NCBI GenBank assembly: GCA_000004985.1
Contig: GG738874.1
Reading direction: 5' to 3' (one strand)
DNA length: 64,000 bases
Source: Naegleria gruberi
Taxonomy: Eukaryota
Every line of letters starts with the position of its first letter. Position 1 is the first letter of the stretch. The notes beneath the pieces are model-generated. The model saw only the letters and a list, made by a program, of their open reading frames with translations, did not search any database and was not told the origin of the DNA. Position numbers and translations under genes: made by a program. Positions 21,174-47,590 of the stretch are shown here, in pieces.

Positions 21174-21635
21174 ATGCAATTATTTGTCAAGACACTCACT
21201 GGAAAAACAATCACTTTGGAAGTTGAATCAAATGATTCAATTGAAAATGTCAAGTCAAAGATTCAAGAAAAGGAAGGAATTTCACCAGATCAACAAAGAC
21301 TCATCTTTGGTGGAAAACAATTGGAAGATGGAAGAACTATTAATGATTACAACATTCAAAAAGATTCAACTCTTCATTTGGTGTTGAGATTAAGAGGAGG
21401 AATGCAACTCTTTGTAAAAACCTTAACTGGAAAAACAATTACTATTGAAATGGAAGCGAATGATACTATTGAGAATATGAAACAAAAGATATTTGATAAG
21501 GAAGGCATTCCTTCAGATCAACAACGATTGATTTATGCAGGAAAACAATTAGAAGATGGAAGAACAATTAGTGATTACAACCTTCAAAAGGATTCTACTG
21601 TGCATTTGGTGTTGAGATTGAGAGGAGGTGGTTAA
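21174..21635 (+). CDS. di-ubiquitin-like protein: two tandem ubiquitin-fold repeats, divergent from canonical ubiquitin, ending RLRGGG
   Basis: Repeat 1 is [76 protein letters not shown], differing at 11 of 76 positions from invariant eukaryotic ubiquitin. Repeat 2 is [76 protein letters not shown], differing at 15 of 76 positions. There is a single extra C-terminal G. Confidence 0.8.
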
Positions 21636-21799: not shown

Positions 21800-23494
21800 A
21801 TGACACAACAGCCACCTCACATTCCACCAGAAATTCTTTCTCTCATAAAAAGTTATTTTTGTCATGGACGTGAATGGGAATTTTTAATGACAAGTTTTAG
21901 ATTTGTTTGCAATGATTGGTATCAAGTTTATTGTCATGATAAGGTGAATCGTATTCGCATAGAATTAACTTCAAATTCTATCACTACATTGGGGAGATCT
22001 AATATTGAAAAATTATGTATGGAGGGCAATAGTTGTTTATTAGGAGTTGATAAAATACAATTTTGCAATGTTGGTACACAAGAATTGCAAGCTATATTGA
22101 ATTGTAATAATTTTACGAATTTAGAGCATTTATTTATTTCTGGGCATTTTGATGTAAAAGTTTTTGAAGAAATTGTAACGAGCGAACCTAATTTATTTAT
22201 TTATAATTTAAAATATTTCTATATATATCATTTGACACCTAACATAGAGGAAATGGTTAGAGTTTTTCAAAAATGTGTTTCAATATCTAATCATCCTTCC
22301 TTTTATTATTTAATATTTATATTAAATACTAATATTATATATTTAAAAAGAGCTGTCGAATTAAATTATTTACCAGCCATTACGAGAATGAAAGAATTAA
22401 CAACGAATGAAAATGAAAAAGTGGAATTGATGATTAAAGGAGCTCAATTGGGTGATTATACTATGCAATTTGATTTGGCTAATTATTATAAAACTAGTGA
22501 ACAACATTCGGAGGCAATACAATGGTTTTTGAAAGCACTAGCTCACAATAACAAAAAAGAAAATCTCACTATTTATAATTATTTAGGAAACTGTTATTTG
22601 GAAGGATCTGGTCTTGAAAAAGATATTAAAAAGGCCCAATATTGGTTTGAAAAAAGTGCACTGAAAGGAAATGCATATGGTCAATTCGGTGTTGCATCCT
22701 GTCATGATGAAAATCATTCTTATACCAAAGCATTTGAATGGTATAAAAAAGCAGCAGACCATGGGGACTCTAATGCTTTATTCAATGTTGCTTATTGTTA
22801 TGAATGGGGTGAGGGTGTTGAAAAGGATCTCTCCAAATCATTTGAATGGTTCCTAAAGTCTGCTGAAAAAGGAGATGCTGAAGCTCAGTATCGTATTGGT
22901 ATGCGTTATACAATGGGAAAAGGAGTTGAAAGAGATTTATATAAGGCATTCAATTGGTATTATAAATCCTCCAAAAACGGATATATAAATTCCATGTTTC
23001 AACTTGGATATATGTATGCTAGTGGTAAAGGAACATCGTTTGATGGAGCTAAATCATTGAAATGGCTAAGTAGGGCAAGTGAAGGTTACGAACATGCTAA
23101 AACAGTTATTGGATTTTTAAATCATTTTGGATTGAATTCAATGAGCAAGGAACTCAATTATGCTGATCAAATGAATATTTCAGAATCAATTAAGAAGAAT
23201 ACAATTGAATCTCTTCGCAAGTGTGGTGCTTGTGATAATATTTGCAAGGGATTTTTCAAATCAACTTTAGATGGCGGATTATCTTTTAATGTTTGTAATG
23301 ATTGTTTAAAATGTATGGATTTGGAACAGATCAAGGAAAAATTTAAATCTGAAATTGGAGACAGAATACTGTATCACACTCATTACCTTGCAAATTTCCT
23401 TCCTCTCATCATTTATTGTAGAGATGAGAATAAGGTTGTTAATTCAAACCTGGAGAGTTTTATTACACAACTGGAAGATTGTGCCAAAGAATAA
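21800..23494 (+). CDS. Sel1-like repeat (SLR/TPR-like) protein with C-terminal Cys-rich zinc-finger-like segment
   Basis: At least six Sel1 repeats are present (…AQYWFEKSALKGNAYGQFGVASCH…AFEWYKKAADHGDSNALFNVAYCYEWGEGVEKDLSKSFEWFLKSAEKGDAEAQYRIGMRYTMGKGVERDLYKAFNWYYKSSKNGYINSMFQLGYMYASGKG…). The C-terminus reads CGACDNIC…CNDCLKC. The true ATG is at 21800; the track start at 21788 is a TTG. Confidence 0.7.
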   Translation: MTQQPPHIPPEILSLIKSYFCHGREWEFLMTSFRFVCNDWYQVYCHDKVNRIRIELTSNSITTLGRSNIEKLCMEGNSCLLGVDKIQFCNVGTQELQAILNCNNFTNLEHLFISGHFDVKVFEEIVTSEPNLFIYNLKYFYIYHLTPNIEEMVRVFQKCVSISNHPSFYYLIFILNTNIIYLKRAVELNYLPAITRMKELTTNENEKVELMIKGAQLGDYTMQFDLANYYKTSEQHSEAIQWFLKALAHNNKKENLTIYNYLGNCYLEGSGLEKDIKKAQYWFEKSALKGNAYGQFGVASCHDENHSYTKAFEWYKKAADHGDSNALFNVAYCYEWGEGVEKDLSKSFEWFLKSAEKGDAEAQYRIGMRYTMGKGVERDLYKAFNWYYKSSKNGYINSMFQLGYMYASGKGTSFDGAKSLKWLSRASEGYEHAKTVIGFLNHFGLNSMSKELNYADQMNISESIKKNTIESLRKCGACDNICKGFFKSTLDGGLSFNVCNDCLKCMDLEQIKEKFKSEIGDRILYHTHYLANFLPLIIYCRDENKVVNSNLESFITQLEDCAKE

Positions 23495-23920: not shown

Positions 23921-25011
23921 ATGTCTTCCTCAACAAATCAATCAAGCTACTCCACTACCGAGTGTATTTCAGAATCGGCAATTACCTTTGAATGCAACTA
24001 TTTATTTGACTCATGTGATGAGGAATGTCAATATGGTCCATCATTATCACATCATCAGAATTCAATACCGAATGTTGCTTCAATTCTATCATTGGATGAT
24101 TTGACCAATCTTTCAATTCAACATACTTCAAGAAACAGCTATGAAGATTTGTCAATTCTCAGTGATTCCGAAGGTGATGATGAAGATTGGATGAATCTCT
24201 TGTTTCATGATGGTTTGAGAATGCTTAATCACAATTCAAGGGAATGGATTATTGAACAGGTTAATTTTGATCATGATTGTAAGATTGTTAATGGAAAGAG
24301 GGATCTACCTCTTGAAAAGACTAATATTTCAATGAATATTAAGAATTTGGGTGAATTTATTGATATGAAGGAATGTGATCAATTTGGAACCTTGAATAAG
24401 TCAACATGTAAATTTGTCAAATCATCTGGTAATTATCACTATTATAGACCATCTCAATCATTAAGGAAAGCAAACTTAGAAAGACGTTGCTTGACTTGTT
24501 TTCATCGGAAAACTTTGGAATTACCTCCATGATGATTTCTCCTCCTTTGATGTTAGCTCACTGGTATGCTGTTTACCAAAAGAAAAGCATTGAACTGAAC
24601 AGTGCCAAATATTTGGAGTCTGAATGGATCTTCAATAATAGAGAACAATGTTTGGAATCAGTTGAATTGTTGCAAAGATATCCCAAGTCAATTCAAAAGA
24701 ACTTGAAGAGATATTCACAGGAAGAATTGGATCTTGTTTTCCCTAAAAAGATTGTTTGGAGAAGAATTTCATTCAGTACTATTCAGAAACATGGATTTAA
24801 CCTGCAAAGAGTTGAATCAAAAAGTGCTTCAGGCTCTCCTACCTATTCTATCAAGTGTGGATCTGAAACACTGCTTGAATTCATATCCTCATTAGAGTTT
24901 TGTTCCAATATTGTCAAGTTACTGACTCTTGTGTCTGTATCGGTCTTTTCTAGAACAATGGATCTTCCAGTTGACAATCTATGTGATCAATTGAAATTGA
25001 CTTTGAGATGA
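23921..25011 (+). CDS. hypothetical protein encoded in two overlapping frames (23921–24532 and 24487–25011), with a frameshift or unrecognised intron
   Basis: Two same-strand ORFs overlap by 46 nt in different frames. A 71-nt GT…AG segment with a weak GTTGCT donor would join them in frame. No family recognised. Confidence 0.35.
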
Positions 25012-25554: not shown

Positions 25555-26763
25555 TCAAGATCTGTTTTGCCATTTAGAAGATTCAATTCCCATTTCTACA
25601 GCATATTTCATGAAACGAAGAACATGATTTTTCTGGATGAGGGACAGAATTCCACTTTCATCATCAATGAATTTCTTTCTATTTTCATCACTACGATTAA
25701 TAATTGGAAAGACAACGCCATTCTTAAATGTTTGGGTAATTAACTGTTCAATATTTGTAAACTCTGGACTTGTTGCAAGGTTGGCAAATAAGTGCCCATT
25801 TTCTGCCACAGTTGTGAATTTGGAGTCCTTCCACAATAAGGCAACACCATCAAATGCCAAATAACGATCTGACAAGTTGTCAAATTTGGTCAACACAAAC
25901 ATGTAATTAATCTTGTGATCTTCAACGCACATCTTAGTATACTTGGCAAACAATGGCTTCAATTCTTCAAGTGTCTTGATGTGAGTCACGTCAATTGTAA
26001 AAATTACCAATTGAATTCGAAATTCCTCTTCGTATTGATTTGGAACAGTATTACATCCTTCAAATGGACCACTATTTGGTGGAATTAATCCTCTCAACAA
26101 GTGTTGGAAATAATTCTTTGCAGGTTCCCTTTCTACAACTCCTTTTTGTTTAGTTTCGTAAAATCCTGGCACATTCCACAAACGAATCTCAGCTCCATTT
26201 CTTATAGGAATAACACCAACTTCAGAAGATTTTGTAACAGAGTGATCAGAATCAGTAGCTTCAAAGAAACGTCCCGATTGAAATGTAATATTATCACATC
26301 CCAAAGCTTGTGCAATATTATTAAGGAGTCCGCTCTTTCCATCTCCTAAAGCTCCGAAACAAACAACATTTAAGGATTTGGTTTTCTTGCTTTCAAAGTG
26401 AATGGCCATCTTGTGGTGGATTTCTTCAAATAAGGTGATGGTAAGATCTGGATCTTTGAGGTTGAAACGTGGAATTTTGTGTTTCATTTCGAATCTGCCA
26501 GTCCAATTAGTTTTGGTGTTTTTGTTATTGGAAACTGTGACCCAGGCATCAAGAGAAAGATTGACATTCTGATCAGAAATTAAAACAAGTTGTGGTTTTT
26601 TGGTTGGATTCAATGTCAACAATGTTGTTTTTCCAGTTTCGTAATTGTAAACCGAAATGTTTTTGATTTCTTTTTCGAGACCTTTCAATTGAAAATGGTG
26701 CAAGTCGAGGAAGTTTGGAGTTTCTCCCGCTTCGTTTGGAATTGGAGAACTTGAGTTACCCAT
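25555..26763 (-). CDS. N-myristoylated P-loop GTPase, IRG/IIGP-like (immunity-related-GTPase-like architecture)
   Basis: The N-terminus is MGNSSS (MGxxxS myristoylation consensus). The Walker A motif is VVCFGALGDGKSGLLNNIAQALG, and a downstream LWNVPGF lies in the G3 position. The overall layout resembles Irga6 (MGQLFSS…GETGSGKSSFINTLRG…FWDLPG). The assignment is by eye only. Confidence 0.55.
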   Translation of the reverse strand: MGNSSSPIPNEAGETPNFLDLHHFQLKGLEKEIKNISVYNYETGKTTLLTLNPTKKPQLVLISDQNVNLSLDAWVTVSNNKNTKTNWTGRFEMKHKIPRFNLKDPDLTITLFEEIHHKMAIHFESKKTKSLNVVCFGALGDGKSGLLNNIAQALGCDNITFQSGRFFEATDSDHSVTKSSEVGVIPIRNGAEIRLWNVPGFYETKQKGVVEREPAKNYFQHLLRGLIPPNSGPFEGCNTVPNQYEEEFRIQLVIFTIDVTHIKTLEELKPLFAKYTKMCVEDHKINYMFVLTKFDNLSDRYLAFDGVALLWKDSKFTTVAENGHLFANLATSPEFTNIEQLITQTFKNGVVFPIINRSDENRKKFIDDESGILSLIQKNHVLRFMKYAVEMGIESSKWQNRS

Positions 26764-26966
26764 AGTTTTGTTTTTTTATTATTGTTTAACTAAGCTGAAT
26801 GTTTCGAATATTAATTATTAGCAGGAAGATGTACAATTCACGTTTCAAAATCACGTTTTGAAAAGATCTAAAATGAAACATGACAGATACGAAACGTGAT
26901 CAGAACCTAATCCATTATAAAATTATTGAATCCAAATTCATTACAATAATCCAATCTTGAAAAAAA
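26764..26966. promoter_or_regulatory. about 200-bp bidirectional promoter region between two divergently transcribed MG-initiated genes
   Basis: Intergenic AT-rich segment between the ATG at 26763 (minus) and the ATG at 26967 (plus). Confidence 0.3.
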
Positions 26967-27908
26967 ATGGGAAACTTGTCTTCCAACAATATTGAATTCT
27001 ATTCACCAGAAGAACACTATAAAAAAATTACCAAAGAAATTCCGAATAATGCTTTCCATCTATTAGAACGATATTTATCTCAAAAAGATAAACCAATTCG
27101 TCTCCATAGAATTTTCGATTATCCTAGCGATTCTACAACTTTCACTATTCGATACTTTACTTACTTGTCAAGAGCTCAAGAATCAACAGTTTCAGAAACT
27201 ATTGAACCAGGATTGAAATATATTTACTTTTATCTTCATGGATCTGACATGTCAGGTATTCTTGCCAAATTGCCAAATAATGTTTGTGCCATTTCGTTTA
27301 ATGCAGATGGAATTAAGGATATTCATAATGAAGATTTATTATCTTTTAAGAGTGAATCAAGTACGTTGGTTATCTGTCTATTGAAATATGTATTGATTCT
27401 TTTATTTTCTTTACTTTTGGTAGTGTTGTCAATGTTTTATTTGCCAAATCAAGGCAATAAAAAACCACAACAAATTGGAAGCAAATATATTGAGATAACA
27501 AGTCAAAACTATAGTAATGGGAAAGGCACAATTCAATTGACTTTTGATATGAAATACTGTCGTACTGTTGAACAACAACTTCTAAAACTTGGAGTTACAC
27601 TGAACATTCCTCCAGAAGATAGTATAAGATATTCAGACAAAAAGCTTGTGAGTCAGGATCAAGACAAGATAACAAGCACAAACATTGTTTCTCCAACATT
27701 AAATGAAAAAATTGAAGAAAGTCATGATACTGAGTTAGTTCAAGCTAAACAGGATGAAAGTCAAGCTCCAATAGAATCTACTTATGATATTCAGAACAGT
27801 AGACAAGAAAATCCTAACTCACAAGATTCAGCTATTTCCAACACCAATATGCAACAAGAATTGAGTGGTGTAGCGTTTGAAAATGAAAATATTGATAAGA
27901 TAGAATAA
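26967..27908 (+). CDS. hypothetical N-myristoylation-motif (MGNLSS) protein with one internal TM helix and Q/S-rich tail (313 aa)
   Basis: ATG ORF with MGNLSS at the N-terminus and a hydrophobic segment LVICLLKYVLILLFSLLLVVLSMFYL. No family recognised. Confidence 0.5.
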   Translation: MGNLSSNNIEFYSPEEHYKKITKEIPNNAFHLLERYLSQKDKPIRLHRIFDYPSDSTTFTIRYFTYLSRAQESTVSETIEPGLKYIYFYLHGSDMSGILAKLPNNVCAISFNADGIKDIHNEDLLSFKSESSTLVICLLKYVLILLFSLLLVVLSMFYLPNQGNKKPQQIGSKYIEITSQNYSNGKGTIQLTFDMKYCRTVEQQLLKLGVTLNIPPEDSIRYSDKKLVSQDQDKITSTNIVSPTLNEKIEESHDTELVQAKQDESQAPIESTYDIQNSRQENPNSQDSAISNTNMQQELSGVAFENENIDKIE

Positions 27909-27909
27909 A

Positions 27910-28987
27910 TTATTTTTTGCTTGTTATTATAATTTTACATAATCTTGCCAAGAGTGCTGTAAGTTGAAGAGGTGTATCAACACCATCACTTATCCTTAAA
28001 TGACAATCACCAATCTCTTTGATAAATTGTAATTGAGCATATTCAGGCATTTGGACAGCTCCACTTCTAACAACTTTGGAAAGAGTAGAAATTACATCTT
28101 GAGAACTGTATCCCTCACCCATTAATTTAGTAAGCTCTTTTTGAGAACTCATTAAATCACCTTGAATACATGATCCAATAATTGTTTGAATAGCAACTGG
28201 ATGAGGTTGATCACAAACTTTGAAAACATTAGTGGCATTTACAATTCCAAAACCTTGATAGGTAGCTTGTAAACTATTAATTGCATTTCTCATGTCACCG
28301 TCTGAAGTATAGAGAATTGATTCCAAACCATCCTCTGTTTTTTGGACATGTTCTAATTCACAAATAACAATTAATCTGGTCAAGAGTTCAGCATCTGTCA
28401 GCCTCTTATATCTGACGAGAGCACATCTTGATTGAATTGGTTCAATAATTTTAGAGCTATCATTGCAAGCAAGAGCAAATCTAGTTGTTGAAGAATAAAT
28501 TTCCATAATACGTCTCATAGCTTGTTGAGCAGCTGATGTCATTGAATCAGCTTCATCCAAAATAACTATTTTGTGTCTATTTGGTGGAAGATTAACTTTC
28601 TTTTGAGCAAATTGTTTAATTTTGTTTCTCACAACATCAAGTGTTCTTTCATCAGAAGCGTTCAATTCTAAAACAGCTTCTTTATATACTTCCTTTCCCA
28701 ATAATGATCTAGCTAAACACATTATACTCGTTGTTTTACCAGTACCTATTATAAATCAATGGTGTGATCATCACAACTCCTATTTAATAAATTAAAATTA
28801 AAAACCTACCTGGTGGTCCAGACAAAATCAGATTCGGCATATTACCTTCCTCAGCAATAACTCTAAGTCTCATGACAGCCTCTTCGTTTCCGACAATATC
28901 ATCCATATCAATGGGACGATATCTTTCAACCCAAGGTCTGTCCATTTCTGTTGGCACACCTGAAGAAGAAGAATTTGATGCAATCAT
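27910..28987 (-). CDS. RFC2: replication factor C small subunit (RFC2/RFC4 family AAA+ clamp-loader subunit), 2 exons (28808–28987, 27910–28747)
   Basis: Exon 1 is [60 protein letters not shown]. An intron (G|GTAGGT…TAATAG) joins the Walker A motif to [20 protein letters not shown]-box-like DEADSM, SRC (SRCALVRY) and sensor-2 motifs are present. Confidence 0.85.
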
Positions 28988-29043
28988 TTTTTTTGAATTT
29001 AAAAAAGTGGAATATTTTTGGCGGCAAGTTTAAAAAAAATAAG

Positions 29044-30747
29044 ATGCTTGCTTCCAACTTGATGAAAAGCCTGACGAAGGAGAAGGGCAATCTTTCCGAT
29101 CATTCATCATCACACAAAGGACAGCATCATCAGCAAGATAGTCATCATGTTGATCATGATGGACCACTTCAATTTAAATTTCAAAATACAACAAATAATT
29201 GGGATGAATCTCCGAGTCTAAATAATAGTCTTCCTTCATCACCAATAATTAGATCTCCTGTAAAACCAAAAAGAAGTAGAGCAAATCAACAACATGACAA
29301 TAATCAGCATTCGAGTAGTAGTGGCAATTTATTGGATAATTCACCTTTTCAAAATTTATCAGTTGTTCAAAACTTTTCATTTCCTGATTTCTTACATAGA
29401 CAATCCATATTTTGGACAATATTAGTATTAACTTTAGGATATTTATTGGGTAGATGGGAGTTGTCATTATCTTGGTTTTTAGTTTTTACTATTGTAGTTT
29501 ATTCACTTTCTTCTAGAATTGCTAGAGATTCTTCAAGAACAATTAACGATTTATTGCGAGTTAAAAAATTAAAAGAGTGGAAGCAGTGGAGAGAGAATCA
29601 TCTTCCAAAGTATCTCACTTCGAATAATAGTGGGAAATTATTTACAAACACAACTGGAGACCAAACTGAAAACACAAAAAGAGATGCAACTCTTGCATGT
29701 GTAAATATTATAATGGATCAATTGTGGAGAGGATTCAATTCTGAATTTATTGTAAAAATGGCGAATGATTGGCTTAAAGAAAATCCAATAGCTTCCAACT
29801 TTGATATTCAAGTTTCATTTCTTGATATAGATAACGATAATCCCCCTTTCTTTACAATGATACACTGCTCAGAAAACACACCGAAGAAAACTGTAATTGA
29901 TGGCTGTTTGGAATACCATGGAGAGTTATTACTCCAATGGTTTGTAAAATTGTTGATTCCTATCCAATTTTTATTGAAAGATGTTTCTGCCAAGGTTAAA
30001 TCTAGAATTAGCATCGAATATTCTGACAATTTGGAGGAATTTGGAAGAACTATATCCAAGGTTGATTTTTGTTTTATGGAGTATCCTGAATTTAATGTAT
30101 CAGTTCAAATGTTCAATTCTTTAGATTTAACTGGATCCATTCCATCTCTTCAAAATCAATTGAAGCTAGGGTTTGAAAAAGCTCTTTTGAACTTTGTCTA
30201 TCCAAAATTTATTACCGTCTATCAATTTGGTGAAGGAAACTCTCCAGGATTAAATTTGGAAATTGATAAGATTGTTGTGGAAGGATTGGAGGATGAGATA
30301 AAGAGTAATTTATTTAACATTAATCAATTACTCAAAGCAATTAACAAATCATCAGGAGAAAGTAAGGAAAGTATCAAAACTGAAGTTTGTAACAATATTC
30401 TAACTCTCCTTTTCCAAGCAAGAGAACCAGGTAAAATTCCAATAGGAATGACAGAAACCATTAGAAATGGATTTCAAATTCTCAACATGTTGGCTTTTGA
30501 AGAAACTGAAAATGGTGAAGCCAATGAAAAGATTATGGAATTATTGTTAAAGACTGAAAACTTGATATTCATTGCTGATGTTGTTAGGAAATGTACTCTT
30601 GCCGATGAACTCGTAATGAACATATTATTCAAAGTTAAGAATACTTCACTTAAAAACCAAATCAATAAGAGGTTCCAAGAATTGGAATTGGCAGATATTC
30701 TTTTCCTAGTAGTTGGCAGAAATGATAGACCAAAATCCAACAATTAA
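29044..30747 (+). CDS. membrane protein with possible SMP (synaptotagmin-like mitochondrial-lipid-binding) domain, Tex2/Nvj2-like; tentative
   Basis: The ATG is at 29044; the track starts earlier at a non-ATG. One TM segment (IFWTILVLTLGYLLGRWEL) is followed by LACVNIIMDQLWRGFNSEFIVKMANDWLKENP, which resembles the SMP start motif (…N-x-h-h-x-x-h-W…). The remainder is unassigned. Confidence 0.45.
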   Translation: MLASNLMKSLTKEKGNLSDHSSSHKGQHHQQDSHHVDHDGPLQFKFQNTTNNWDESPSLNNSLPSSPIIRSPVKPKRSRANQQHDNNQHSSSSGNLLDNSPFQNLSVVQNFSFPDFLHRQSIFWTILVLTLGYLLGRWELSLSWFLVFTIVVYSLSSRIARDSSRTINDLLRVKKLKEWKQWRENHLPKYLTSNNSGKLFTNTTGDQTENTKRDATLACVNIIMDQLWRGFNSEFIVKMANDWLKENPIASNFDIQVSFLDIDNDNPPFFTMIHCSENTPKKTVIDGCLEYHGELLLQWFVKLLIPIQFLLKDVSAKVKSRISIEYSDNLEEFGRTISKVDFCFMEYPEFNVSVQMFNSLDLTGSIPSLQNQLKLGFEKALLNFVYPKFITVYQFGEGNSPGLNLEIDKIVVEGLEDEIKSNLFNINQLLKAINKSSGESKESIKTEVCNNILTLLFQAREPGKIPIGMTETIRNGFQILNMLAFEETENGEANEKIMELLLKTENLIFIADVVRKCTLADELVMNILFKVKNTSLKNQINKRFQELELADILFLVVGRNDRPKSNN

Positions 30748-31264: not shown

Positions 31265-33988
31265 ATGGAGCAACAACCTCAAATGCCACCATCAGCAAAT
31301 GGCATCAATCAGCAAGTCAAACCACACCCTTCTCAAACACAACATATATCCCCAAGTGTCAATGGAGGTGTGATGGATGGTTTACCACCGGGATCAGGTC
31401 AAGCTTTTGTTCAACCAGCACACCCTCACGTCCATTATCATCATGTTGATCCAAATATGCAAAGAAAACAAGTGATCCCTCCACAAGTAATAACCCAAAC
31501 AGGAACACAAATGCCATCTTACTATTATCCACAACAACCATATTATGCTGTACCTGGACAACCATATGGTATGTCACCACAATCATTTCCATATGCACCT
31601 TATGGTTATCAATATCCATATGGTGCACAAACAGCATATCCACCATATCCACACCAAGGACACCAACCTCATACAGTTCCTCCTATCCCTAATCAACCTC
31701 AAGTTACACAAGTTGTTGCTAAACCTGCAACACCATCAACCACTCCTAAACAGAAAAAAAAGAAATCTAAACCTGTTAACCAATCTAATGCTATTTTCCC
31801 TAGTCAATCTAAATCGATATGTCCAACTGATTCATTCAATGTTGGAAGAAAGAATGAAATTCTCTATTTGGTGGAGGGGTTTACAATGGATAGAGTTTTA
31901 CAAAATATTAATGTGCATATCCAATCAGGAAATGAGGTCACTATATCAGAAAAGCAAGTTTTGAAAATAGATATTTCATCCCTGGAAGGAAAGGCCCTCA
32001 AAATTCAAATTTATATTTGTCAGCTCAATGTGGACAAAATTCAAGACACAACAATACCATTACATTTATTTATGGAATATCCAGTCAATAGTGAAGAATT
32101 AGAATTCCAAGATTTATCGTTTACTTACCAACCAAATCTCTCCAACGCAAGATCTCTCTATTTTTTGAGATTTGTCCTTTTGGAAACTGTGGATAAGGTT
32201 GATAAGGTTGTAAATTTCTGTGACAGCTGTAATTTTATGATAGTATCTCCAAGTAACAAGAAGAAGAAGAGTACTTCTTCACAACCAACACCTACAATTC
32301 AGCACAATACTACTATACCGCCTGCTACTTCGACAACACCAACACTTCCTTCTCTCCCTCAAAATAATGTTTCATCCTTAACAAAACCCCCATCTAAGGG
32401 AGGTGAGGCCCCAACTGTAGAATTCTTGAAGCGATTAATTTCCACAGCGCCTAAAAAAGAACATTTGAGCCATTGGAATAATTTCATGGTTACTCTTGAT
32501 CAATTGAATGTGTATGATGGAAACTTTTTAAAGAAAGCTGAGGACATTTCTGACAGCATCAAGAGGGGAGGAAGATTCTCTGTATATCCTTGCATTGAGC
32601 AATGCTGCCCTTCTTTTGGACCAATCAGAGGAGGAATACAAGTTAGCATTAACGTGAAAGATTTAGATGTTTATGATGAAGATGATTTATCAATTTTTAT
32701 TGATGATATCAAGATTTCAAAGAAGGATATCACTTCTATACGACCAACTAAAATAGAATTTTATTTACCTGCACTGAAAGGATCACGTATTCCAGGCCAA
32801 GTAGATGTTTCTATTTCTGTAGATAATGGATTTGAATGCTATTCTCATGTATTGTACAATTCTTTTGAATACGTCCTTGATGAGGAATTTGAAAAGAGGA
32901 AGGGTACTATTCCTATGAAGGAAAGATCAGCTACTGGTCTTGTACAAGTTGTTACTATCAAGCCAATCAATGGTACAGCAGAAACTAATGAAGAAGAATA
33001 CGGAGATATCAACGAAAAAATGGATATCTATAATGGAGAATCTTGTCAATACAGTTCATGTATCCACTTTGAACGTGGATATTTGGATAGCTCAAAGTTA
33101 GATCCAAAACAAAGGTTCATGTGGGTTCTTCGCAGAGCTGATTCTGAGAGTCTCTATGGTTCTCAAGTTGCTAATGAAGATCACGCAGGTGTAATATTGA
33201 GAGGTGAAGCGATACTTAACAAGACAAAGATGGCAGACATTTTGGAAATGTGTTTTGAAATTGATAGAAGAATATCAAGTGAAAAGCTTGGAGTTGCAAT
33301 GAGTTTGCAACTTTTTGATAGAGAGACAAAGAAATACCTGTATACATCTAAGGCACTTCACATTCTTACCAGACCACCAAAGCCAGTCCAATACAGCAGT
33401 TTCAATGAAGACGAACGTGTTCTTCAACTTTTAGATAAGATCAAAACAAGAAAGAGAAGACGTGGCAGAAATGCTATTGCCTTTGATCCTAACTTGAACT
33501 CCCTAGGCCAGCCAATGACACATGCACTCTGCCTTTCAGATAATGAAGTTGAAATTCAAAAATCATTCCAACAATTCCATTTGGAAGTGAATGACCAATT
33601 TTCCAGAAGTCCTTTCCACTTGGCTTTTGCTGCAGGAAATTTGAATGCTGTAAAATTCTTTATGGAAAAGATTGCAGTCTCTCCTCACATTTATTTATTC
33701 CAGAGAGATTGTTATAATCAAACACCTTTCCATCTTGCGTTCAAGTTTTACAGGACTAAATTCCTGGTTGAGTGTTGCGCATTCCTTAAAGAAAAACTTG
33801 ATAAGTCAACAAATAGGAATGAAAATTCTCAAAATGTTGATATCTCTCCAACTGTCCAACAGAAACAAGATAAAAAGAGAAAAACACCTTCATCATCCAA
33901 TGAAACAACCAAACGAACCAAAGTTGAAGTCATCAGTTCCTCTGACGATGAGGAAGAAACCAGTCTCCACCTGCAAGATGATGAATAA
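31265..33988 (+). CDS. IPT/TIG-domain + ankyrin-repeat protein with prion-like Q/P/Y-rich N-terminus (SPT23/MGA2- or CAMTA-like architecture, no TM anchor)
   Basis: 907-aa ORF. The N-terminal 150 aa are rich in P/Q/Y. The central IPT/TIG-like beta-sandwich is IRGGIQVSINVKDLDVYDEDDLSIFIDDIKISKKDITSIRPTKIEFYLPALKGSRIPGQVDVSISVDNG. The C-terminal ankyrin-like repeats are SPFHLAFAAGNLNAVKFFMEK…TPFHLAFKFYRTKFLVECC, and the tail is acidic. Confidence 0.5.
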   Translation: MEQQPQMPPSANGINQQVKPHPSQTQHISPSVNGGVMDGLPPGSGQAFVQPAHPHVHYHHVDPNMQRKQVIPPQVITQTGTQMPSYYYPQQPYYAVPGQPYGMSPQSFPYAPYGYQYPYGAQTAYPPYPHQGHQPHTVPPIPNQPQVTQVVAKPATPSTTPKQKKKKSKPVNQSNAIFPSQSKSICPTDSFNVGRKNEILYLVEGFTMDRVLQNINVHIQSGNEVTISEKQVLKIDISSLEGKALKIQIYICQLNVDKIQDTTIPLHLFMEYPVNSEELEFQDLSFTYQPNLSNARSLYFLRFVLLETVDKVDKVVNFCDSCNFMIVSPSNKKKKSTSSQPTPTIQHNTTIPPATSTTPTLPSLPQNNVSSLTKPPSKGGEAPTVEFLKRLISTAPKKEHLSHWNNFMVTLDQLNVYDGNFLKKAEDISDSIKRGGRFSVYPCIEQCCPSFGPIRGGIQVSINVKDLDVYDEDDLSIFIDDIKISKKDITSIRPTKIEFYLPALKGSRIPGQVDVSISVDNGFECYSHVLYNSFEYVLDEEFEKRKGTIPMKERSATGLVQVVTIKPINGTAETNEEEYGDINEKMDIYNGESCQYSSCIHFERGYLDSSKLDPKQRFMWVLRRADSESLYGSQVANEDHAGVILRGEAILNKTKMADILEMCFEIDRRISSEKLGVAMSLQLFDRETKKYLYTSKALHILTRPPKPVQYSSFNEDERVLQLLDKIKTRKRRRGRNAIAFDPNLNSLGQPMTHALCLSDNEVEIQKSFQQFHLEVNDQFSRSPFHLAFAAGNLNAVKFFMEKIAVSPHIYLFQRDCYNQTPFHLAFKFYRTKFLVECCAFLKEKLDKSTNRNENSQNVDISPTVQQKQDKKRKTPSSSNETTKRTKVEVISSSDDEEETSLHLQDDE

Positions 33989-42485: not shown

Positions 42486-45400
42486 TTACTTTTCTTCTGT
42501 CATGACAGTTTCATCTTGCTTGGAATCTTCAGAGGATGATTGTTGGTTCTTTTCCTTATTGAGATTTGGTCGTCTGAATCTTGATGATTTAGATTGATTG
42601 GCTGATTCCTCTTCCCTATCATTCGATTCCTCTTCATCAGTTTTAACTTTCTTATTTGGCCTTTCAATATCTGTACTCGATGGTGTAACAGCTTGATTAT
42701 CTTCGGAATTTTCGTTTTCATCATTCTTAAATTCGTCAATTGAACGTTTTCCTGTGAATTTTTCATCTTCTTGAGAACTTGATTGAGCAGGAGTAGTATT
42801 TACATTAGAAGTGGTAGCAGTAGGATTTACAGTTGTTGATTCAGAGGTAGAAGGTGAGGCTGAGGATGAAGCAACAGGTGGAGTTACAACAGGTTTGATT
42901 TGAAGTAAGAGTTGTGCACGAAGACTTTCCTTCACCTTTTCAGCAGCACTCTTCTTTTCTTCATCCTTTTTACGAAGCTCTTCCTTCTTTCGTTCCTCTT
43001 CTTTCTTACGAGCCTCTTCTTCTCTCTTTCGTTCTTCCTCCTTCTTTCGTTCTTCTTCCCTTCTTGTGGCTTCCTCCTTCTTTCGTTCTTCCTCCTTTTT
43101 ACGCTCCTCTTCTTTCTTTCTTTCTTCTTCCTTCTTTCGTTCTTCTTCTTTCTTTCTTTCTTCCTCTTTCTTTTTTTCTTCTTCATCATCTTGTTTTATG
43201 GATTCTTCCTTAGGTGGTTCATCTCTAGTGCTTGGAGAAACACTTTGCTCACCAACAGATTCAGTATTCTTAAGTTTTTCTTCCAATGCCGATTTTTCAT
43301 TCTTTAATGTTTCAATCTTGGCCTTTTGATTACGAAGAATATCCATCATCTTGTCTTTCTTTTCCAATAATTGAGTCTTTTCCTTTTCTAGCTCTGAATG
43401 TTCGGATGACAATTTTGAAAATTTAGACTCTGACTCAGAGTTCTTAGTTTCCAAAGAATTAATCTTTGTCTTGAAAGTGGAAATTTGAATGTTGAGATTT
43501 TGAATATCAATCTTAAGCTGTTTAACCTTTTGAACTTCTGTATTGTACAACTCTTCCTTTTCTTTGACAGATTCTTCAAGAGATGACTTTTCTTTCACCA
43601 ATCTATCATGAACCTCTGGGTCAATTTGCTTGAATTTTTCAACCAAGTGTTGAGCCTTATTTTGATACTTGATAACATCTTCTCTAAGAGTAGATATTTC
43701 CTCTTCCCTCATTTCCTTTTCCTTCCTAAGTTCAATGATAGTTTGATTCATTGGAGCCATTTGCTTTCTAACATCAGTGAGATCTTCTCTTGTTTGATTC
43801 AACATTCTGTTGAGTTGATCATTTTGCTGTCTTAATGAAATATTACTTTCCTTAAAGACTTGGACTTGCTCTTGAAGATCGGCAATTTGTTGTCCAGTAC
43901 GATCTTGCTCTTTGGTATGATTTTGGGCCTTTTCTCTTTCAGTTGATAGCTCTGCTTGGGCATTTGCAAGTTCCTTATAGGCATGCTCTAACTTTTGTTT
44001 AGTATTTTTGAGCTCTTGTTCTGAAATAGCGAGTTTAGATCTTAACATTTCCTTCTCCCTTCTTATGAAAGAAATTGTTTCTTGGAGGCCTAGTACTTCT
44101 TGTGCATTCTCGTGAGAAACATTGTCAGATGAAGATGGAATTGTATTATCTTGCACCTTCTTGAGTTGAATATTTAAAGTTTCAACTCTAGAGAAGGAAA
44201 TTTCCAATTGTCTTTCTAAGTCCTTAACTCTTTGCTCAATTTCGTCTTTTTGTTTGATCAAATCTTCGTTTTGAGTTGTGAGAAGTCCAACTTTTCTCTC
44301 TGTTTCAGTTTCTTGATTTTTAACTGTGTGGTTAGCAGTTTCGAGTGATGCTTGAAGATTTTTAATCTCCTCTTTCTTCTCTTTCAATACTTCGACAGTG
44401 GCAGCATGTCTCATGAGTTCTTGTTCATAATTTTCTTGGGAATCTTTCCAGAGTTGAGTGTGTCTTCTCAAATCTTCTTTCAAAACTTCGATTCTCTTTT
44501 CATAAGTTTCAGCATTAGTCTTATTTTCGTGACCAGTATTTTCGAGAAGTTGCTTTTCCTTCTTATTTTGTTCAATAGATTCATTAAGATCGTGCTTCAA
44601 CTTTTCAATATCATCTTCTCTTTGTTTGAGAGTATGTCTAAGTGAGTCGATTTCTTGCTTGAGATTGGAAATTTCTGATATAAGAGTTTGAGCCTTGGAT
44701 TCAGTTGAATGCTTGAATTTGTCATAAGTTTCTGTCATCTCCTTCAGAGATTGTTCGTTGCTTTCAGCAAGTTCCTTCATTGTTTGAACTTTGGATTTTT
44801 CGTTTTCAAGAGAATCCTTGAGATACTCGTTTTCGTTTTGAAGCTTTGTGAATTGTAATTGAAGCTCAGAAATATCTGTAGAGGCAGTTTCAACGGTAGA
44901 TAAACCTATCATCTTCTTTTCCAAAATCTTGTTTAATCTATCTTCAGCTGCATTCAACTTTTGTTGAAGATTAGTACACTTTTCCATTTCGAATTCATAA
45001 TTAGTTCTCAATCTAGTGACTTCATCCTTCAGCTTTTGTAATTCAGAAATCTTCTTTTCTAACTTTTCATTGCTTTCTTGCTCTTGCAATTCAAGTTGAA
45101 CTCTGAGTTCTTTAGAAAGTACTCTTTCATCATCAAGAGTATGTTTAAGTTGGCTAATTTCTGATTTAGCTGATTCAAGCTCTTGTTGAGTTCTCTTTCT
45201 ATCATTGTCGTCCTTTTGCTCAAGACCTACTTGGATCTTTTGTAAACTAGAATAGAATTCATCGCTTCTTTGCAGTTGTACTTTCAATCCTTCAATTTCA
45301 GAATTCAATCTCTCGGTTCTTTGCTCGTGATATAATTTTTCAGATCTAAGTTGGATAATTTCTCTTTCCAAGTTTCTTATTTGATCATCCTTTGCTTCAT

Positions 45401-47590
45401 ACAAAACTCTTTGCTTATCCATACTATTTTGAAGTGAAGAAATTGTTTTTGTCAGAGAATCATTAATATCTCTAACTCTATTCAACTCTTTCATACTATA
45501 ATCCCTTTCCATAGAAGTGCTTTGATTACTTTCCTTTAAAAATTCAACTTCAGAAGTTAAACGAGCAACACTAGAGTGGAGAGTTGTGATCTTATCATTC
45601 TTGAAAGCAATTTCATCTTGGAGAGCCTTCTTCTCTCTAGCAACTTCTTGTTGAAGCTCTCTAAAGTCTTTCAAGTTCATGAATTCTCTGTTTACATCTT
45701 GTGAAGCATTGGAAGATTTTTGGACAGGTTCTGGAGTTGAAGAGGATGTTGCACTCTTTTCTTCCAACAGTGATTTAAGAATATCTCTTTGTTTGATAAG
45801 AGCTTGAGTTTTTTCTTCTTGGCGTTTGCTTTCTCGTTTTAATTCCTCAACCTGTTTGAGAGCTTCAAGAATCTTTTCTTGGAAGTCTGCTGCCAATAGT
45901 TCTTGGGCATTCTTGGCTTCTTCTTCTTTTCTTGTGGCAAGATCTCTTATTGTGCCAAGGAGTTCTACATTTCTCTTTTGCAATTCATCAATATTATCAA
46001 AAGGTACTAATCTTTGAGTAATTACAGCATTAGCATCCATGTGAGAAGCAGATTCAACACTATAGTGATTTTCTCTCAATAAAGTTCTTACTTGTACAGA
46101 TAAATCTTCAGTAACTTTTTGAGCAGTAGTGAGAGACTTTTTAAGTTTATCCCTTTCGTTTCTAATGTCTATTAATTCGTCCTTCATAGATTGACATGTT
46201 TGAATGAGTTCTTGCTTTTGTTTTGTTAAAATAGTATATGAAGATCTAAGTTGTTCGTATTCCTCTCTCTGAGCTTGCATTATTGGAGCCTTTTCTTCTA
46301 AATCCTTTAATATTCCAGAAAGCACTTCATTTAATCTCTTGTTTTCATTTCTGGACTTTAGTAATTCATCACTAGTTTTTACAAACTTGGTGTAAATATC
46401 ACTAGGGCTAATACCTTGGTTAACTAGGGTTGATGCACGAAGTTGGGCATTTTGCTCCAAGTCGCGATTATGCTTGTTAATTTGTTCTTCCAATTGACGG
46501 ATTTTATCCTTTGATTGTCTTAGTTCTTGAGATATTTCTTCTCTTTCAGTTTCAAAGGTTTGATCCATTCTTTGTTTAGAATCCTTAAGTGTGGAAAGTT
46601 GTTTTTCAAGCTCTTTGATTTTATCTTCCAAATCCTCATGTCTATTTTTGTATAAATCGGATAACCTCTTTTCATTAGAAAGTTCCTCTTTTAACCTATC
46701 AATTTCTTCAAGGTGATTATTCTTACACTCTCTAATCTCGGTTATCTTTTGTTGGTACTTTTGTTGATATTCCTTGTTTGATTGTTCCAAAGAATTCAAT
46801 TTCTCAGTTAAACTAGTTATAGTTTCACTGTCTTTTGTTGCTTGTATTTGGAGGTCATTCAATTGAAGGATGTAATCCGATTTAAGCTTTGTATTTTGTT
46901 CTTGTTTTGATGAAAGCTCCGAGTTAAACCATTGATTTTGCTTTTCTAATGATTCCTTCTCTTGTTGTAGCTTCTCAATAGTAAACTTGAGAGGTAACAA
47001 AGATGAAGAAGTTTCTTGAAGCTTTTCCTCTAGTTCCTTTTTAGATTTAAAATGTTCAGTAATTTTTTGGTTAAGTGACTCGATATGTGCTGTATAGAAT
47101 ATACCAATCAATTAACTATTTAACATACAATTTAGATCATCAACTTCTTTAGTTTTCTTTTCTAATAGTGATGTTAATCTAGATTTTTCAATCTTTAGAT
47201 CTTCATTCTGGGTATTAGCTTGGTCCAACTCCATCCTTTGCTCGTGCCACCTCTTTTCCGCATCTTTAATTTGTTTTGTAAGATGGTCCAATTGTTCCTG
47301 GTAACTTTTGTTTTCGCTCTTGAAATGTTCAATCCTTTCCTTGAGAAGCTGACTATCTTCAAGTTTAGAATTTTCTTGTTGCTCAAATTTGTTCATCAGA
47401 GACTCGTTGGCGAGTCTGATTGTTTTAATTTCCTCTCTACATTCCAAAAGTTCATCGTCCTTTTTAGAAATATATTCTTGGGCCTTTTTAATAATTTCAA
47501 GAGGATTATTGCCGATTTGCTCTAGCTCCTCAGCTGTGAGAAAAGAAAGTTTGGATACTTCATCAGCAAGCGAGCGATCAACTATCGACA
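42486..47590 (-). CDS. TPR: nuclear-pore basket protein TPR/Mlp1-like giant coiled-coil protein (about 1700 aa), 2 exons joined by a 39-nt intron (47090–47128)
   Basis: Segments match human TPR: KAPIMQAQREEYEQLRSSYTILTKQKQEL vs [28 protein letters not shown], and ISFIRREKEMLRSKLAISEQEL vs [22 protein letters not shown]. The N-terminal exon (47129–47590, MSIVDRSLADE…) is joined through CTAAATT|GTATGT…TATACAG|CACAT, which restores the frame. The C-terminus is an (KKEEER)n tract followed by an S/T-rich and acidic tail. Confidence 0.75.
42955..43190 (-). repeat. coding tandem repeat (about 15-nt unit, about 14 copies) encoding an (E-E-R-K-K)n / ER-K-rich single-alpha-helix-like tract in the TPR-like protein
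   Basis: The plus strand shows a reiterated ttcttcc(t)tctttcg unit. The protein reads KKEEERKKEEERKKEEERKKEEERKKEEERKKEEATRREEERKKEEERKREEEARKKEEERKKEELRKKDEEKK. Confidence 0.75.

What the first reader, a model, noticed from the sequence alone, without database searches (positions are those of the whole stretch)
25555..27908. IRG/IIGP-like N-myristoylated P-loop GTPase divergently paired with a second MGxxxS-initiated membrane protein
The minus-strand gene encodes a 402-aa protein beginning MGNSSS with a Walker A motif GALGDGKSGLLNNIAQALG, and its overall layout is reminiscent of Irga6. Irga6 belongs to the immunity-related GTPases, which are myristoylated, load onto pathogen vacuoles and are classically vertebrate. 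The adjacent divergently transcribed gene (26967–27908) also starts MGNLSS and has an internal TM helix. The two share a roughly 200-bp intergenic region, suggesting co-regulation. This may be a membrane-targeted GTPase pair, possibly a cell-autonomous defence or membrane-remodelling module, in a non-vertebrate lineage.
Basis: partly seen in the sequence, partly recalled or inferred. Interest (0 to 1): 0.6.

Follow-up and report, generated by a model that had tools for sequence, protein, structure and literature searches.

The report
Orphan Naegleria GTPase-like gene pair
The two genes are real, but the first is a highly divergent, nearly orphan GTPase-like protein of the amoeba Naegleria gruberi, not a member of the vertebrate IRG immunity family, and its neighbour is an unannotated orphan membrane protein with no shown functional link to it.

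Summary
ORF 25555-26763(-) encodes a 402-aa protein (MGNSSS…, P-loop GALGDGKS) identical to Naegleria gruberi NAEGRDRAFT_58312. ORF 26967-27908(+) encodes a 313-aa protein (MGNLSS…) with one strong TM helix. They are separated by 203 bp. Comparison with a 98%-identical strain shows purifying selection on both. ORF2 is missing from the reference protein set.

The IRG reading is not supported. There is no IIGP Pfam hit, the domain layout differs, and no IRG appears among the fold matches. No paralog expansion was found: only one paralog fragment and one environmental homolog among 1.84 billion representatives.

Motifs, a low-confidence AlphaFold model and its fold matches indicate a TRAFAC-class G domain. 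It has G1, an atypical G3 (NxxG instead of DxxG, conserved in the homolog), G4 TKFD and a G5-like Ser. Weak, sub-threshold signals point to the septin/Toc34/AIG1/Era-EngB group.

Both N-termini fit positions 2-6 of the NMT motif. However, ORF1 has Pro7, the homolog's N-terminus is ambiguous, and ORF2's charge distribution argues against a cytosolic N-terminus.

The gene pairing is not seen at the homolog's locus. Verdict: a new divergent variant of a known fold; defence function unsupported; moderate-low interest.

The parts
25555..26763 (-). ORF1, 402 aa, N. gruberi NAEGRDRAFT_58312. N-terminal ~125-aa domain of unknown fold, a divergent TRAFAC-type G domain, and a C-terminal helix.
   Evidence: identity to XP_002676097.1. 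(family of only 3 other entries). (GTPase fold).
26743..26763 (-). N-terminus MGNSSSP. It fits NMT motif positions 2-6, but Pro at position 7 violates the PROSITE PS00008 rule.
   Evidence: Motif as quoted in PMC9018777.
26332..26355 (-). G1 / Walker A GALGDGKS (residues 137-144).
   Evidence: Conserved as GQQGVGKS in homolog P0003.
26164..26175 (-). Atypical G3 NVPG (residues 197-200), with Asn in place of the canonical Asp and Phe after the Gly (no catalytic Gln).
   Evidence: NTFG in P0003. Aligned to the septin IDTPGF and to WDSPG of an IRG-like G domain. Lies at the end of predicted strand beta3.
25879..25890 (-). G4 TKFD (residues 292-295).
   Evidence: T292 and D295 are invariant in the three family sequences (TKFD, TRVD, TKFD). 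Follows predicted beta5.
25690..25728 (-). Most conserved family block, FKNGVVFPIINRS (residues 346-358). It covers predicted beta6 and a G5-like invariant Ser358.
26764..26966 (.). 203-bp divergent spacer (putative bidirectional promoter) with three copies of TCACGTTT (26838+, 26851+, 26892-).
   Evidence: 6 copies in the window against 1.5 expected; 3 are here.. All three are intact in the second strain.
26967..27908 (+). ORF2, 313 aa, MGNLSS…. Orphan single-pass membrane protein with an acidic, S/E/Q/N-rich tail. Absent from the reference annotation.
   Evidence: only hit is a 98%-identical environmental copy. (purifying selection).
27363..27446 (+). TM helix of ORF2 (residues 133-160).
   Evidence: Flank charges.

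Best explanation
ORF1 (NAEGRDRAFT_58312) is a lineage-restricted, very divergent GTPase-like protein of Naegleria gruberi. It has a TRAFAC-class (Ras-like topology) G domain preceded by a family-specific domain of about 125 aa and followed by a single long helix.

Shown: the P-loop, an [NT]KxD-type G4 and a G5-like Ser are conserved across the tiny family. The G3 Asp is replaced by Asn, and no catalytic Gln follows G3.

Inferred: it most likely binds guanine nucleotide and acts as a slow switch, or one that depends on dimerisation or a partner. This would resemble the hydrophobic-substituted GTPases of the septin / Toc34 / AIG1 / Era-EngB group, which are its weak nearest neighbours. It may sit peripherally on membranes through an N-terminal myristate.

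It is not a member of the IRG/IIGP family.

ORF2 is a genuine but unannotated orphan gene for a single-pass membrane protein. The two genes share a 203-bp divergent spacer and could be co-transcribed from a bidirectional promoter. A functional partnership is not demonstrated.
For: Identity and rarity:
- ORF1 is 100% identical to the N. gruberi protein.
- Exhaustive phmmer against 1.84e9 representatives finds only three things: itself, a 123-aa N. gruberi paralog fragment (61% identity), and one environmental 401-aa homolog (25% identity over residues 59-394, E=5e-9).
- A fourth hit (P0004) is an artefact of four repeated P-loop segments, each scoring 12.6 bits or less.

Motifs:
- G1, NxxG, T[KR]xD and the FKNGVVFP…S block are conserved.

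Fold:
- The AlphaFold2 model of residues 119-402 (pLDDT 49.8, pTM 0.53) has the order b1-Ploop-a1-b2-b3-a2-b4-a3-b5-a4-b6-a5.
- Foldseek against PDB gives 41 hits with E<=1e-3, essentially all GTPases, led by Toc34 and followed by EngB, Era and septins.
- Against BFVD the top hit is an AIG1-family protein, followed by dynamin and Ras-like GTPases.

Sequence profiles:
- The top PDB hit of the family profile is the septin Cdc10, aligned from G1 to G3 (E=0.026).
- Pfam gives sub-threshold MMR_HSR1, RsgA, Septin and IIGP matches.

Reality of both genes.
Against: - No match to any curated family reaches its threshold.
- The G3 Asp that holds the Mg2+-bound water is missing, so GTP binding or hydrolysis may be impaired.
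- Homolog P0003 has Arg in place of the G4 Lys.
- P0003 also gives a sub-threshold hit to a P-loop ATPase family (NF047389, E=2.4e-5, 23.7 bits against a 75-bit cut-off).
- Myristoylation is uncertain. ORF1 has Pro7. Neither protein has K/R at position 7, a nearby Cys or a basic patch. The homolog reads MGNKPF and has an in-frame ATG 12 codons upstream.
- The flank charges of ORF2's TM helix predict an N-out topology.
- The pairing is absent at the homolog's locus.
Confidence: 0.6

Rival explanations
1. ORF1 is a true, very divergent homolog of the vertebrate immunity-related GTPases (IIGP family). It would act in cell-autonomous defence by loading onto pathogen-containing vacuoles through its myristoylated N-terminus.
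For: - Similar overall length and an MG N-terminus.
- Local motif resemblance: G4 context FVLTKFD against FVRTKID of Irgb6, and the P-loop context. The family profile hits Irgb6 at E=0.07.
- hhalign against an IRG-like G domain gives 43.8% probability over G1-G3.
- IIGP is among the sub-threshold Pfam hits of homolog P0003 (E=1.4e-3).
Against: - No PF05049 hit for ORF1. The P0003 hit covers 30 P-loop residues and is below the cut-off.
- The intact IRG-like G domain of P0004 scores only 7.6 bits against ORF1.
- The layout differs: P-loop at 137, only 107 aa after G4, and one C-terminal helix instead of a large helical domain.
- There is no paralog expansion.
- The same motifs occur throughout the septin/AIG1/dynamin-type GTPases.
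Confidence: 0.05
2. ORF1 is a pseudo-GTPase. It keeps the fold but has lost productive Mg2+/GTP binding or hydrolysis, and serves as a scaffold.
For: - The G3 Asp is replaced by Asn in both full-length family members.
- There is no catalytic Gln.
- G2 is not clearly definable.
- P0003 has Arg instead of the G4 Lys.
Against: - The P-loop GxxGxGKS, the G4 Thr and Asp, and the G5-like Ser are all retained under divergence to 25% identity. That pattern argues for selection on nucleotide binding.
- Asn can still hydrogen-bond a Mg-bound water (inference from general GTPase chemistry).
Confidence: 0.2
3. ORF1 is a P-loop NTPase of another class (ATPase of STAND, AAA or Sll1717 type), not a GTPase.
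For: P0003 gives sub-threshold hits to NF047389 'P-loop ATPase Sll1717 family' (E=2.4e-5), AAA_16, NACHT and ATPase_2.
Against: - These hits centre on the P-loop and lie far below their cut-offs.
- ORF1 itself gives none of them except weak FtsK, TsaE and cobW matches.
- A conserved T[KR]xD lies at the end of beta5.
- All fold-search hits with E<=1e-3 are GTPases.
Confidence: 0.08
4. ORF1 and ORF2 form a co-regulated functional module: a myristoylated GTPase together with its myristoylated transmembrane partner or receptor.
For: - Divergent arrangement with a 203-bp spacer.
- Both N-termini read MGN-x-SS, and they are the only two such N-termini among the 38 large ORFs of the window.
- Three TCACGTTT copies sit in the spacer, 3 of the 6 in the window against 1.5 expected for the whole window. 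All three are intact in a second strain.
Against: - No ORF2 relative lies next to the only known homolog, and there is no synteny.
- ORF2 has no homolog outside N. gruberi strains.
- ORF2's TM flank charges predict a non-cytosolic N-terminus.
- Divergent gene pairs are common in this compact genome.
- No expression data are available.
Confidence: 0.2

Closest known systems
Septins (Pfam PF00735)
   Same: - P-loop GxxGxGKS.
- G1-to-G3 region alignable (Cdc10 is the best PDB sequence hit, E=0.026).
- Hydrophobic residue after the G3 Gly.
- Pfam Septin is the second-best hit of homolog P0003 (E=3.4e-4).
   Different: - Below the Pfam cut-off (20.4 against 26.2 bits for P0003; no hit for ORF1).
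- G3 is NVPG rather than DTPG, and G4 is TKFD rather than AKAD.
- No identifiable septin unique element, polybasic region or coiled coil.
- A ~125-aa N-terminal domain that septins do not have.
Toc34/Toc159 and AIG1/GIMAP GTPases (PF04548)
   Same: - Toc34 is the top Foldseek hit in PDB (E=8e-5).
- An AIG1-family protein is the top hit in BFVD (E=7e-5).
- Toc33 is among the profile hits.
- These are membrane-associated GTPases that work by dimerisation and lack a catalytic Gln (established knowledge).
   Different: - Pfam AIG1 gives only 12.8 bits against a 27-bit cut-off for P0003, and nothing for ORF1.
- TM-scores are about 0.28.
- No C-terminal TM anchor.
- G3 Asp replaced by Asn.
Immunity-related GTPases, IRG/IIGP (PF05049)
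   Same: - About 400 aa with an MG N-terminus.
- G1 GxxGxGKS, a W-x-x-PG type G3 context and a TKxD G4.
   Different: - No family-level sequence or fold match.
- The G domain is shifted about 60 residues towards the C-terminus.
- No large C-terminal helical domain.
- No gene-family expansion.
- Found in a protist rather than a vertebrate.
Era / EngB (YihA) / MMR_HSR1-type GTPases (PF01926)
   Same: - Best Pfam hit of ORF1 (E=0.003, residues 133-258).
- The beta4 strand ends in hhhhhD (LVIFTID).
   Different: - 18.1 bits against the 21.9-bit cut-off.
- No KH or other ribosome-binding module.
- No orthologs, so this is not a conserved housekeeping GTPase.
- G4 is TKxD rather than NKxD.

Membership tests
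IRG / IIGP (PF05049) | Match to the Pfam IIGP profile at or above the gathering score (24 bits). | tested here: not met
   ORF1 gives no IIGP hit at E<=1. Homolog P0003 gives 18.2 bits, over residues 108-137 only.
IRG / IIGP (PF05049) | Layout: short helical N-terminal region, a G domain starting near residue 70, and a large helical C-terminal domain. | tested here: not met
   In ORF1 the P-loop is at 137-144, G4 is at 292-295 and only 107 aa follow. In Irgb6 the P-loop aligns at about chain residue 70-78 and G4 at about 180 of 417. The model shows a single long helix after beta6 (low confidence).
IRG / IIGP (PF05049) | Canonical G1, G3 (DxxG) and G4 (TKxD) motifs. | tested here: inconclusive
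   G1 and G4 are present. G3 is NVPG in ORF1 and NTFG in the homolog. These motifs are not specific to IRGs.
IRG / IIGP (PF05049) | Structural similarity to Irga6, Irgb6 or Irgb10. | tested here: not met
IRG / IIGP (PF05049) | Multigene family with lineage expansion. | tested here: not met
   Only one paralog fragment (NAEGRDRAFT_70565) was recovered from 1.84e9 representatives.
Septin (PF00735) | Pfam Septin profile at or above 26.2 bits, with G3 DTPG and G4 AKAD. | tested here: not met
   P0003 scores 20.4 bits over residues 116-190 and ORF1 gives no hit. The motifs are NVPG and TKFD.
Septin (PF00735) | Septin unique element C-terminal to the G domain. | tested here: inconclusive
AIG1 / GIMAP / Toc34 (PF04548) | Pfam AIG1 profile at or above 27 bits. 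| tested here: not met
   P0003 scores 12.8 bits and ORF1 gives no hit. Toc34 and a viral AIG1 protein top the Foldseek lists, but with TM-scores of about 0.28.
MMR_HSR1 (PF01926) | Pfam profile at or above 21.9 bits. | tested here: not met
   18.1 bits for both ORF1 and P0003.
TRAFAC-class P-loop GTPase (superfamily level) | Walker A GxxxxGK[ST]. | tested here: met
   GALGDGKS at residues 137-144, and GQQGVGKS in the homolog.
TRAFAC-class P-loop GTPase (superfamily level) | Guanine-specificity motif [NT]KxD after beta5. | tested here: met
   TKFD in ORF1, TKFD in the paralog and TRVD in the homolog. Thr and Asp are invariant. The motif follows predicted beta5.
TRAFAC-class P-loop GTPase (superfamily level) | Walker B / G3 DxxG. 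| tested here: not met
   NVPG and NTFG: the Gly is conserved but Asp is replaced by Asn in both full-length members.
TRAFAC-class P-loop GTPase (superfamily level) | Ras-like strand and helix order, and fold matches to GTPases. | tested here: met
   The element order in the AF2 model is Ras-like. There are 41 PDB and 13 BFVD Foldseek hits with E<=1e-3, essentially all GTPases. The model is of low confidence.
N-myristoylated proteins | Gly at position 2 of the real N-terminus. | tested here: met
   In-frame stops lie 5 and 3 codons upstream. The NCBI model of ORF1 is identical. The Gly2 codon of ORF2 carries a synonymous change in the second strain.
N-myristoylated proteins | NMT recognition motif MG[^DEFRWY]X[^DEKR][ACGST][KR], from Castrec 2018 as quoted in PMC9018777, and PROSITE PS00008. 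| tested here: inconclusive
   Both proteins fit positions 2-6 and neither has K/R at position 7. ORF1 has Pro7, which PS00008 forbids, while ORF2 passes PS00008. Homolog P0003 has Phe6 and an alternative upstream ATG.
N-myristoylated proteins | Actual attachment of myristate. | not testable with these tools
   This needs metabolic labelling or mass spectrometry.

The most novel reading that the evidence does not exclude
ORF1 founds a previously undescribed protist family of membrane-anchored GTPases of the septin/AIG1/IRG type. The family would have a conserved Asn-for-Asp G3 and its own N-terminal domain. ORF1 would act together with its co-regulated, divergently transcribed transmembrane neighbour as a membrane-remodelling or phagosome-defence module in a free-living amoeba.
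Probability: 0.08. Interest if true: 0.6.

Novelty: new variant of a known kind. Interest (0 to 1): 0.3.

Why it matters
If ORF1 is a working GTPase, it shows that the TRAFAC G domain tolerates a conserved Asn in place of the Mg2+-organising G3 Asp. It would also add a tiny protist-restricted family to the septin/AIG1/Toc-like GTPases. The practical gains are modest. An uncharacterised N. gruberi protein gets a fold-level assignment. An unannotated but selected gene (ORF2) is identified. The suggestion that IRG-type immunity GTPases exist in Heterolobosea can be set aside.

Tried and rejected
- **Word-indexed homolog searches:** the search with ORF1 returned only itself, and the search with the family alignment returned only itself and P0003.
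- **Exhaustive phmmer:** it gave four hits. One of them (P0004, an IRG-like multi-P-loop protein) looked like a bridge to the IRGs. It proved to be an artefact of four near-identical repeats. Its intact G domain scores 7.6 bits, E about 1e5.
- **Collection scans:** scans of metagenome contigs and viral contigs with the family alignment found no relatives.
- **Structure prediction:** single-sequence AlphaFold of the full protein was useless (pLDDT 33.5).
- **AFDB fold search:** the afdb50 library was unavailable.
- **Other protein libraries:** NCBIfam and PADLOC gave nothing for ORF1 or ORF2.
- **Genomic context of ORF1 and its paralog:** look-ups for NAEGRDRAFT_58312 and NAEGRDRAFT_70565 found no record. 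The paralog's neighbourhood could therefore not be checked.
- **Literature:** searches for the locus tag, for Naegleria with IRG/septin/GIMAP, and for Sll1717 gave nothing relevant.
- **ORF2 relative or synteny at the homolog loci L001/L003:** none found.
- **Inverted repeat near both ATGs:** an 8-nt repeat (ATTATTGT/ACAATAAT) was dismissed, because it is mutated in the second strain and is expected by chance in AT-rich DNA.
Full report
**Origin and observation**

The window is nuclear DNA of the heterolobosean amoeba Naegleria gruberi. The 402-aa product of ORF 25555-26763(-) is 100% identical to the hypothetical protein NAEGRDRAFT_58312 (XP_002676097.1, UniProt D2VIG5), which lies on a 401.6-kb scaffold. 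GC content is about 33% throughout the window. The neighbouring RFC small-subunit gene has a 64-nt GT..AG intron.

- ORF1 starts MGNSSSP and carries GALGDGKSGLLNNIAQALG at residues 137-155.
- ORF 26967-27908(+) encodes 313 aa starting MGNLSSN.
- ORF2 has one strongly hydrophobic segment at residues 133-160 (Kyte-Doolittle 2.9).
- The two ATGs are 203 bp apart.
- In-frame stops lie 5 and 3 codons upstream of the ATGs, so Gly is residue 2 in both unless an unseen upstream exon exists. The NCBI model of ORF1 has no such exon.

**Are both genes real?**

ORF2 is not in the reference protein set. Its exact sequence is absent. The only database hit is a 98%-identical protein from an ENA metagenome contig (L002) that is colinear with window 26079-29079 at 98.3% nucleotide identity.

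That second strain gives a small selection test:

| Region | Substitutions | Indels | Synonymous : non-synonymous |
|---|---|---|---|
| 203-bp spacer | 11 (5.4%) | two of 1 bp | not applicable |
| ORF1 (685 bp covered) | 7 (1.0%) | none | 4:3 (binomial p=0.04) |
| ORF2 | 9 (1.0%) | in-frame only, 6 and 9 bp | 7:2 (binomial p=3e-4) |

The difference between the spacer and the coding sequence has Fisher p=6e-5. Both ORFs are therefore real protein-coding genes, and ORF2 is an annotation gap.

**How isolated ORF1 is**

The word-indexed search of 5.8e9 clusters found only the protein itself. The exhaustive phmmer search of 1.84e9 representatives found four entries:
- ORF1 itself.
- P0002, which is N. 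gruberi NAEGRDRAFT_70565. It is a 123-aa model, 61% identical to residues 288-401, so a paralog or paralog fragment.
- P0003, a 401-aa environmental protein from a JGI metagenome. It is also found on a 16-kb ENA contig and in a Logan assembly. It is 25% identical over residues 59-394, E=5e-9.
- P0004, an 869-aa protein whose single intact G domain is IRG-like (Irgb10 E=7e-8).

The P0004 hit looked like support for the IRG idea but is an artefact. The 44.7 bits are the sum of four near-identical P-loop repeats of at most 12.6 bits each. The intact G domain alone scores 7.6 bits, E about 1e5.

A second word-indexed search with the family alignment, and scans of metagenome and viral contigs, added nothing. 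The family is therefore tiny and shows no expansion.

**What the protein is**

Curated libraries give only sub-threshold, P-loop-centred matches:
- For ORF1: MMR_HSR1 at 18.1 bits (cut-off 21.9), and no IIGP hit at E<=1.
- For P0003: RsgA, Septin (20.4 against 26.2 bits), IIGP (18.2 against 24 bits, 30 residues only), MMR_HSR1, Roc, Ras, Dynamin_N and AIG1.
- NCBIfam and PADLOC give nothing for ORF1.

The family alignment shows which residues are kept at 25% identity:
- G1: GxxGxGKS.
- G3 position: N-x-x-G, read as LWNVPGF in ORF1 and VINTFGV in P0003.
- A beta4-like hhhhID stretch.
- G4: MFV[LI]T[KR]xD, with Thr292 and Asp295 invariant.
- The block FKN[GS]VVFP…S358, which fits beta6 plus G5.

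HMMER aligns the NxxG segment to the IDTPGF of the septin Cdc10. hhalign aligns it to the WDSPG of an IRG-like domain (43.8% probability). This confirms it as G3 with Asn in place of the canonical Asp. The residue after the Gly is Phe or Val, so there is no catalytic Gln. That is typical of the Era/EngB/septin/AIG1/IRG type of GTPase (established knowledge).

**Fold**

Full-length single-sequence AlphaFold failed (pLDDT 33.5). With the three-sequence alignment, residues 119-402 gave pLDDT 49.8 and pTM 0.53. The element order was b1-Ploop-a1-b2-b3-a2-b4-a3-b5-(hairpin)-a4-b6-a5-long helix, which is the Ras-like/TRAFAC order.

The model is poor, so scores are low, but the matches are consistent:
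- Foldseek against PDB gives 41 hits with E<=1e-3, essentially all GTPases. Toc34 is first, followed by RhoC, RF3, EngB, Era, septins and Gtr1.
- BFVD ranks an AIG1-family protein first, then dynamin and Ras-like GTPases.
- No IRG chain appears in the top lists, although IRG structures are in the library.

I conclude that a TRAFAC-class G domain is well supported. Placement near the septin/Toc34/AIG1/Era-EngB group is tentative. Membership of any curated family is not shown.

**Why it is not an IRG**

Beyond the failed profile and fold tests, the layout differs. The P-loop is at residue 137, against about 75 in Irgb6. G1 to G4 spans about 155 residues, against about 105. Only 107 residues follow G4, against about 235. 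The region before the G domain is a family-specific segment of about 125 aa with no recognised fold.

The resemblances are a length of about 400 aa, an MG start, W-x-x-PG and TKxD. These are shared widely among GTPases of this type.

**Myristoylation**

Both N-termini satisfy positions 2-6 of the NMT motif MG[^DEFRWY]X[^DEKR][ACGST][KR], as quoted from Castrec et al. 2018 in PMC9018777. Several points weaken the case:
- Neither has K/R at position 7.
- ORF1 has Pro7, which the older PROSITE rule excludes. ORF2 passes that rule.
- Neither has a nearby Cys or basic patch as a second membrane signal (read directly from the sequence).
- The homolog reads MGNKPF (Phe6) and has an in-frame ATG 12 codons upstream, so conservation of the signal is unclear.
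- For ORF2, the TM flanks carry 1 K/R and 4 D/E on the N side, against 3 K/R and 0 D/E on the C side. By the positive-inside rule this predicts a non-cytosolic N-terminus, which would be incompatible with myristoylation.

Myristoylation is plausible for ORF1, doubtful for ORF2, and untested for both.

**The pairing**

Among 38 ATG-ORFs of at least 150 aa in the window, only these two adjacent genes have such N-termini. The spacer holds three of the window's six TCACGTTT octamers, two direct and one inverted, against 1.5 expected for the whole window. All three are intact in the second strain even though the spacer is the most diverged segment. This is compatible with a shared bidirectional promoter.

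Against a functional module:
- The loci of the only homolog (L001, L003) contain no ORF2 relative and show no synteny with the window.
- ORF2 has no homologs outside N. gruberi strains.
- No expression data are available.

I rate a functional module at about 0.2.

**Mechanism**

Shown: conserved G1, G4 and G5-like residues on a GTPase-type fold; G3 Asp replaced by Asn; no catalytic Gln; no TM segment in ORF1.

Inferred: ORF1 binds guanine nucleotide. It hydrolyses slowly, or only on dimerisation or partner binding, like the septin, Toc and GIMAP GTPases. It may associate peripherally with membranes. A dead pseudo-GTPase remains a real alternative (0.2). An ATPase of another class is unlikely (0.08).

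**Verdict**

IRG membership, a 'GTPase pair' and a defence role are not supported. This is a new, very divergent variant of a known fold with an unusual G3, in a nearly orphan family. Interest is moderate-low.

Noticed in passing
window 26967-27908 (+): ORF2 is absent from the NCBI N. gruberi protein set, but it is intact and under purifying selection in a second strain. It is an unannotated gene.
   Followed up: yes
window 27906-27912: The stop codon of ORF2 (27906-27908, + strand) and the stop codon of the RFC subunit gene (27910-27912, - strand) are 1 nt apart. The 3' UTRs of these convergent genes must therefore overlap.
   Followed up: partly
window 27910-28987 (-): Replication factor C small-subunit gene with a 64-nt GT..AG intron (28746-28809) that splits the P-loop codon (GPPG|TGKT). 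Between the two strains the 813-bp exon 2 ORF segment (27910-28722) carries a single, synonymous substitution.
   Followed up: partly
window 26838-26899: Three copies of TCACGTTT (two direct, one inverted) lie in the 203-bp divergent spacer. The window holds six in all, against 1.5 expected. All three are intact in the second strain. This is a possible cis-regulatory box.
   Followed up: partly
window 23921-25011 (+): Two ORFs that overlap in different frames (23921-24532 and 24487-25011). They probably form one gene interrupted by an intron or a frameshift. No Pfam domain was found.
   Followed up: no
L003 1584-3312: The environmental homolog of ORF1 also has a divergently oriented upstream neighbour, a 124-aa ORF with a hydrophobic stretch, about 110-150 bp away. 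It shows no detectable similarity to ORF2.
   Followed up: partly
window 21174-21635, 21800-23494, 42486-46568, 48428-50908: Ordinary eukaryotic genes nearby: di-ubiquitin, a Sel1-repeat protein, a TPR/Mlp nuclear-basket protein and a protein kinase. Several other large ORFs (for example 732-6170 and 31265-33988) have no Pfam domain.
   Followed up: no
P0004 (ENA metagenome protein, not in window): An 869-aa protein with three truncated copies and one complete copy of an IRG-like G-domain N-terminus. Repeats of this kind inflate whole-sequence HMMER E-values and can mimic a significant remote hit.
   Followed up: yes
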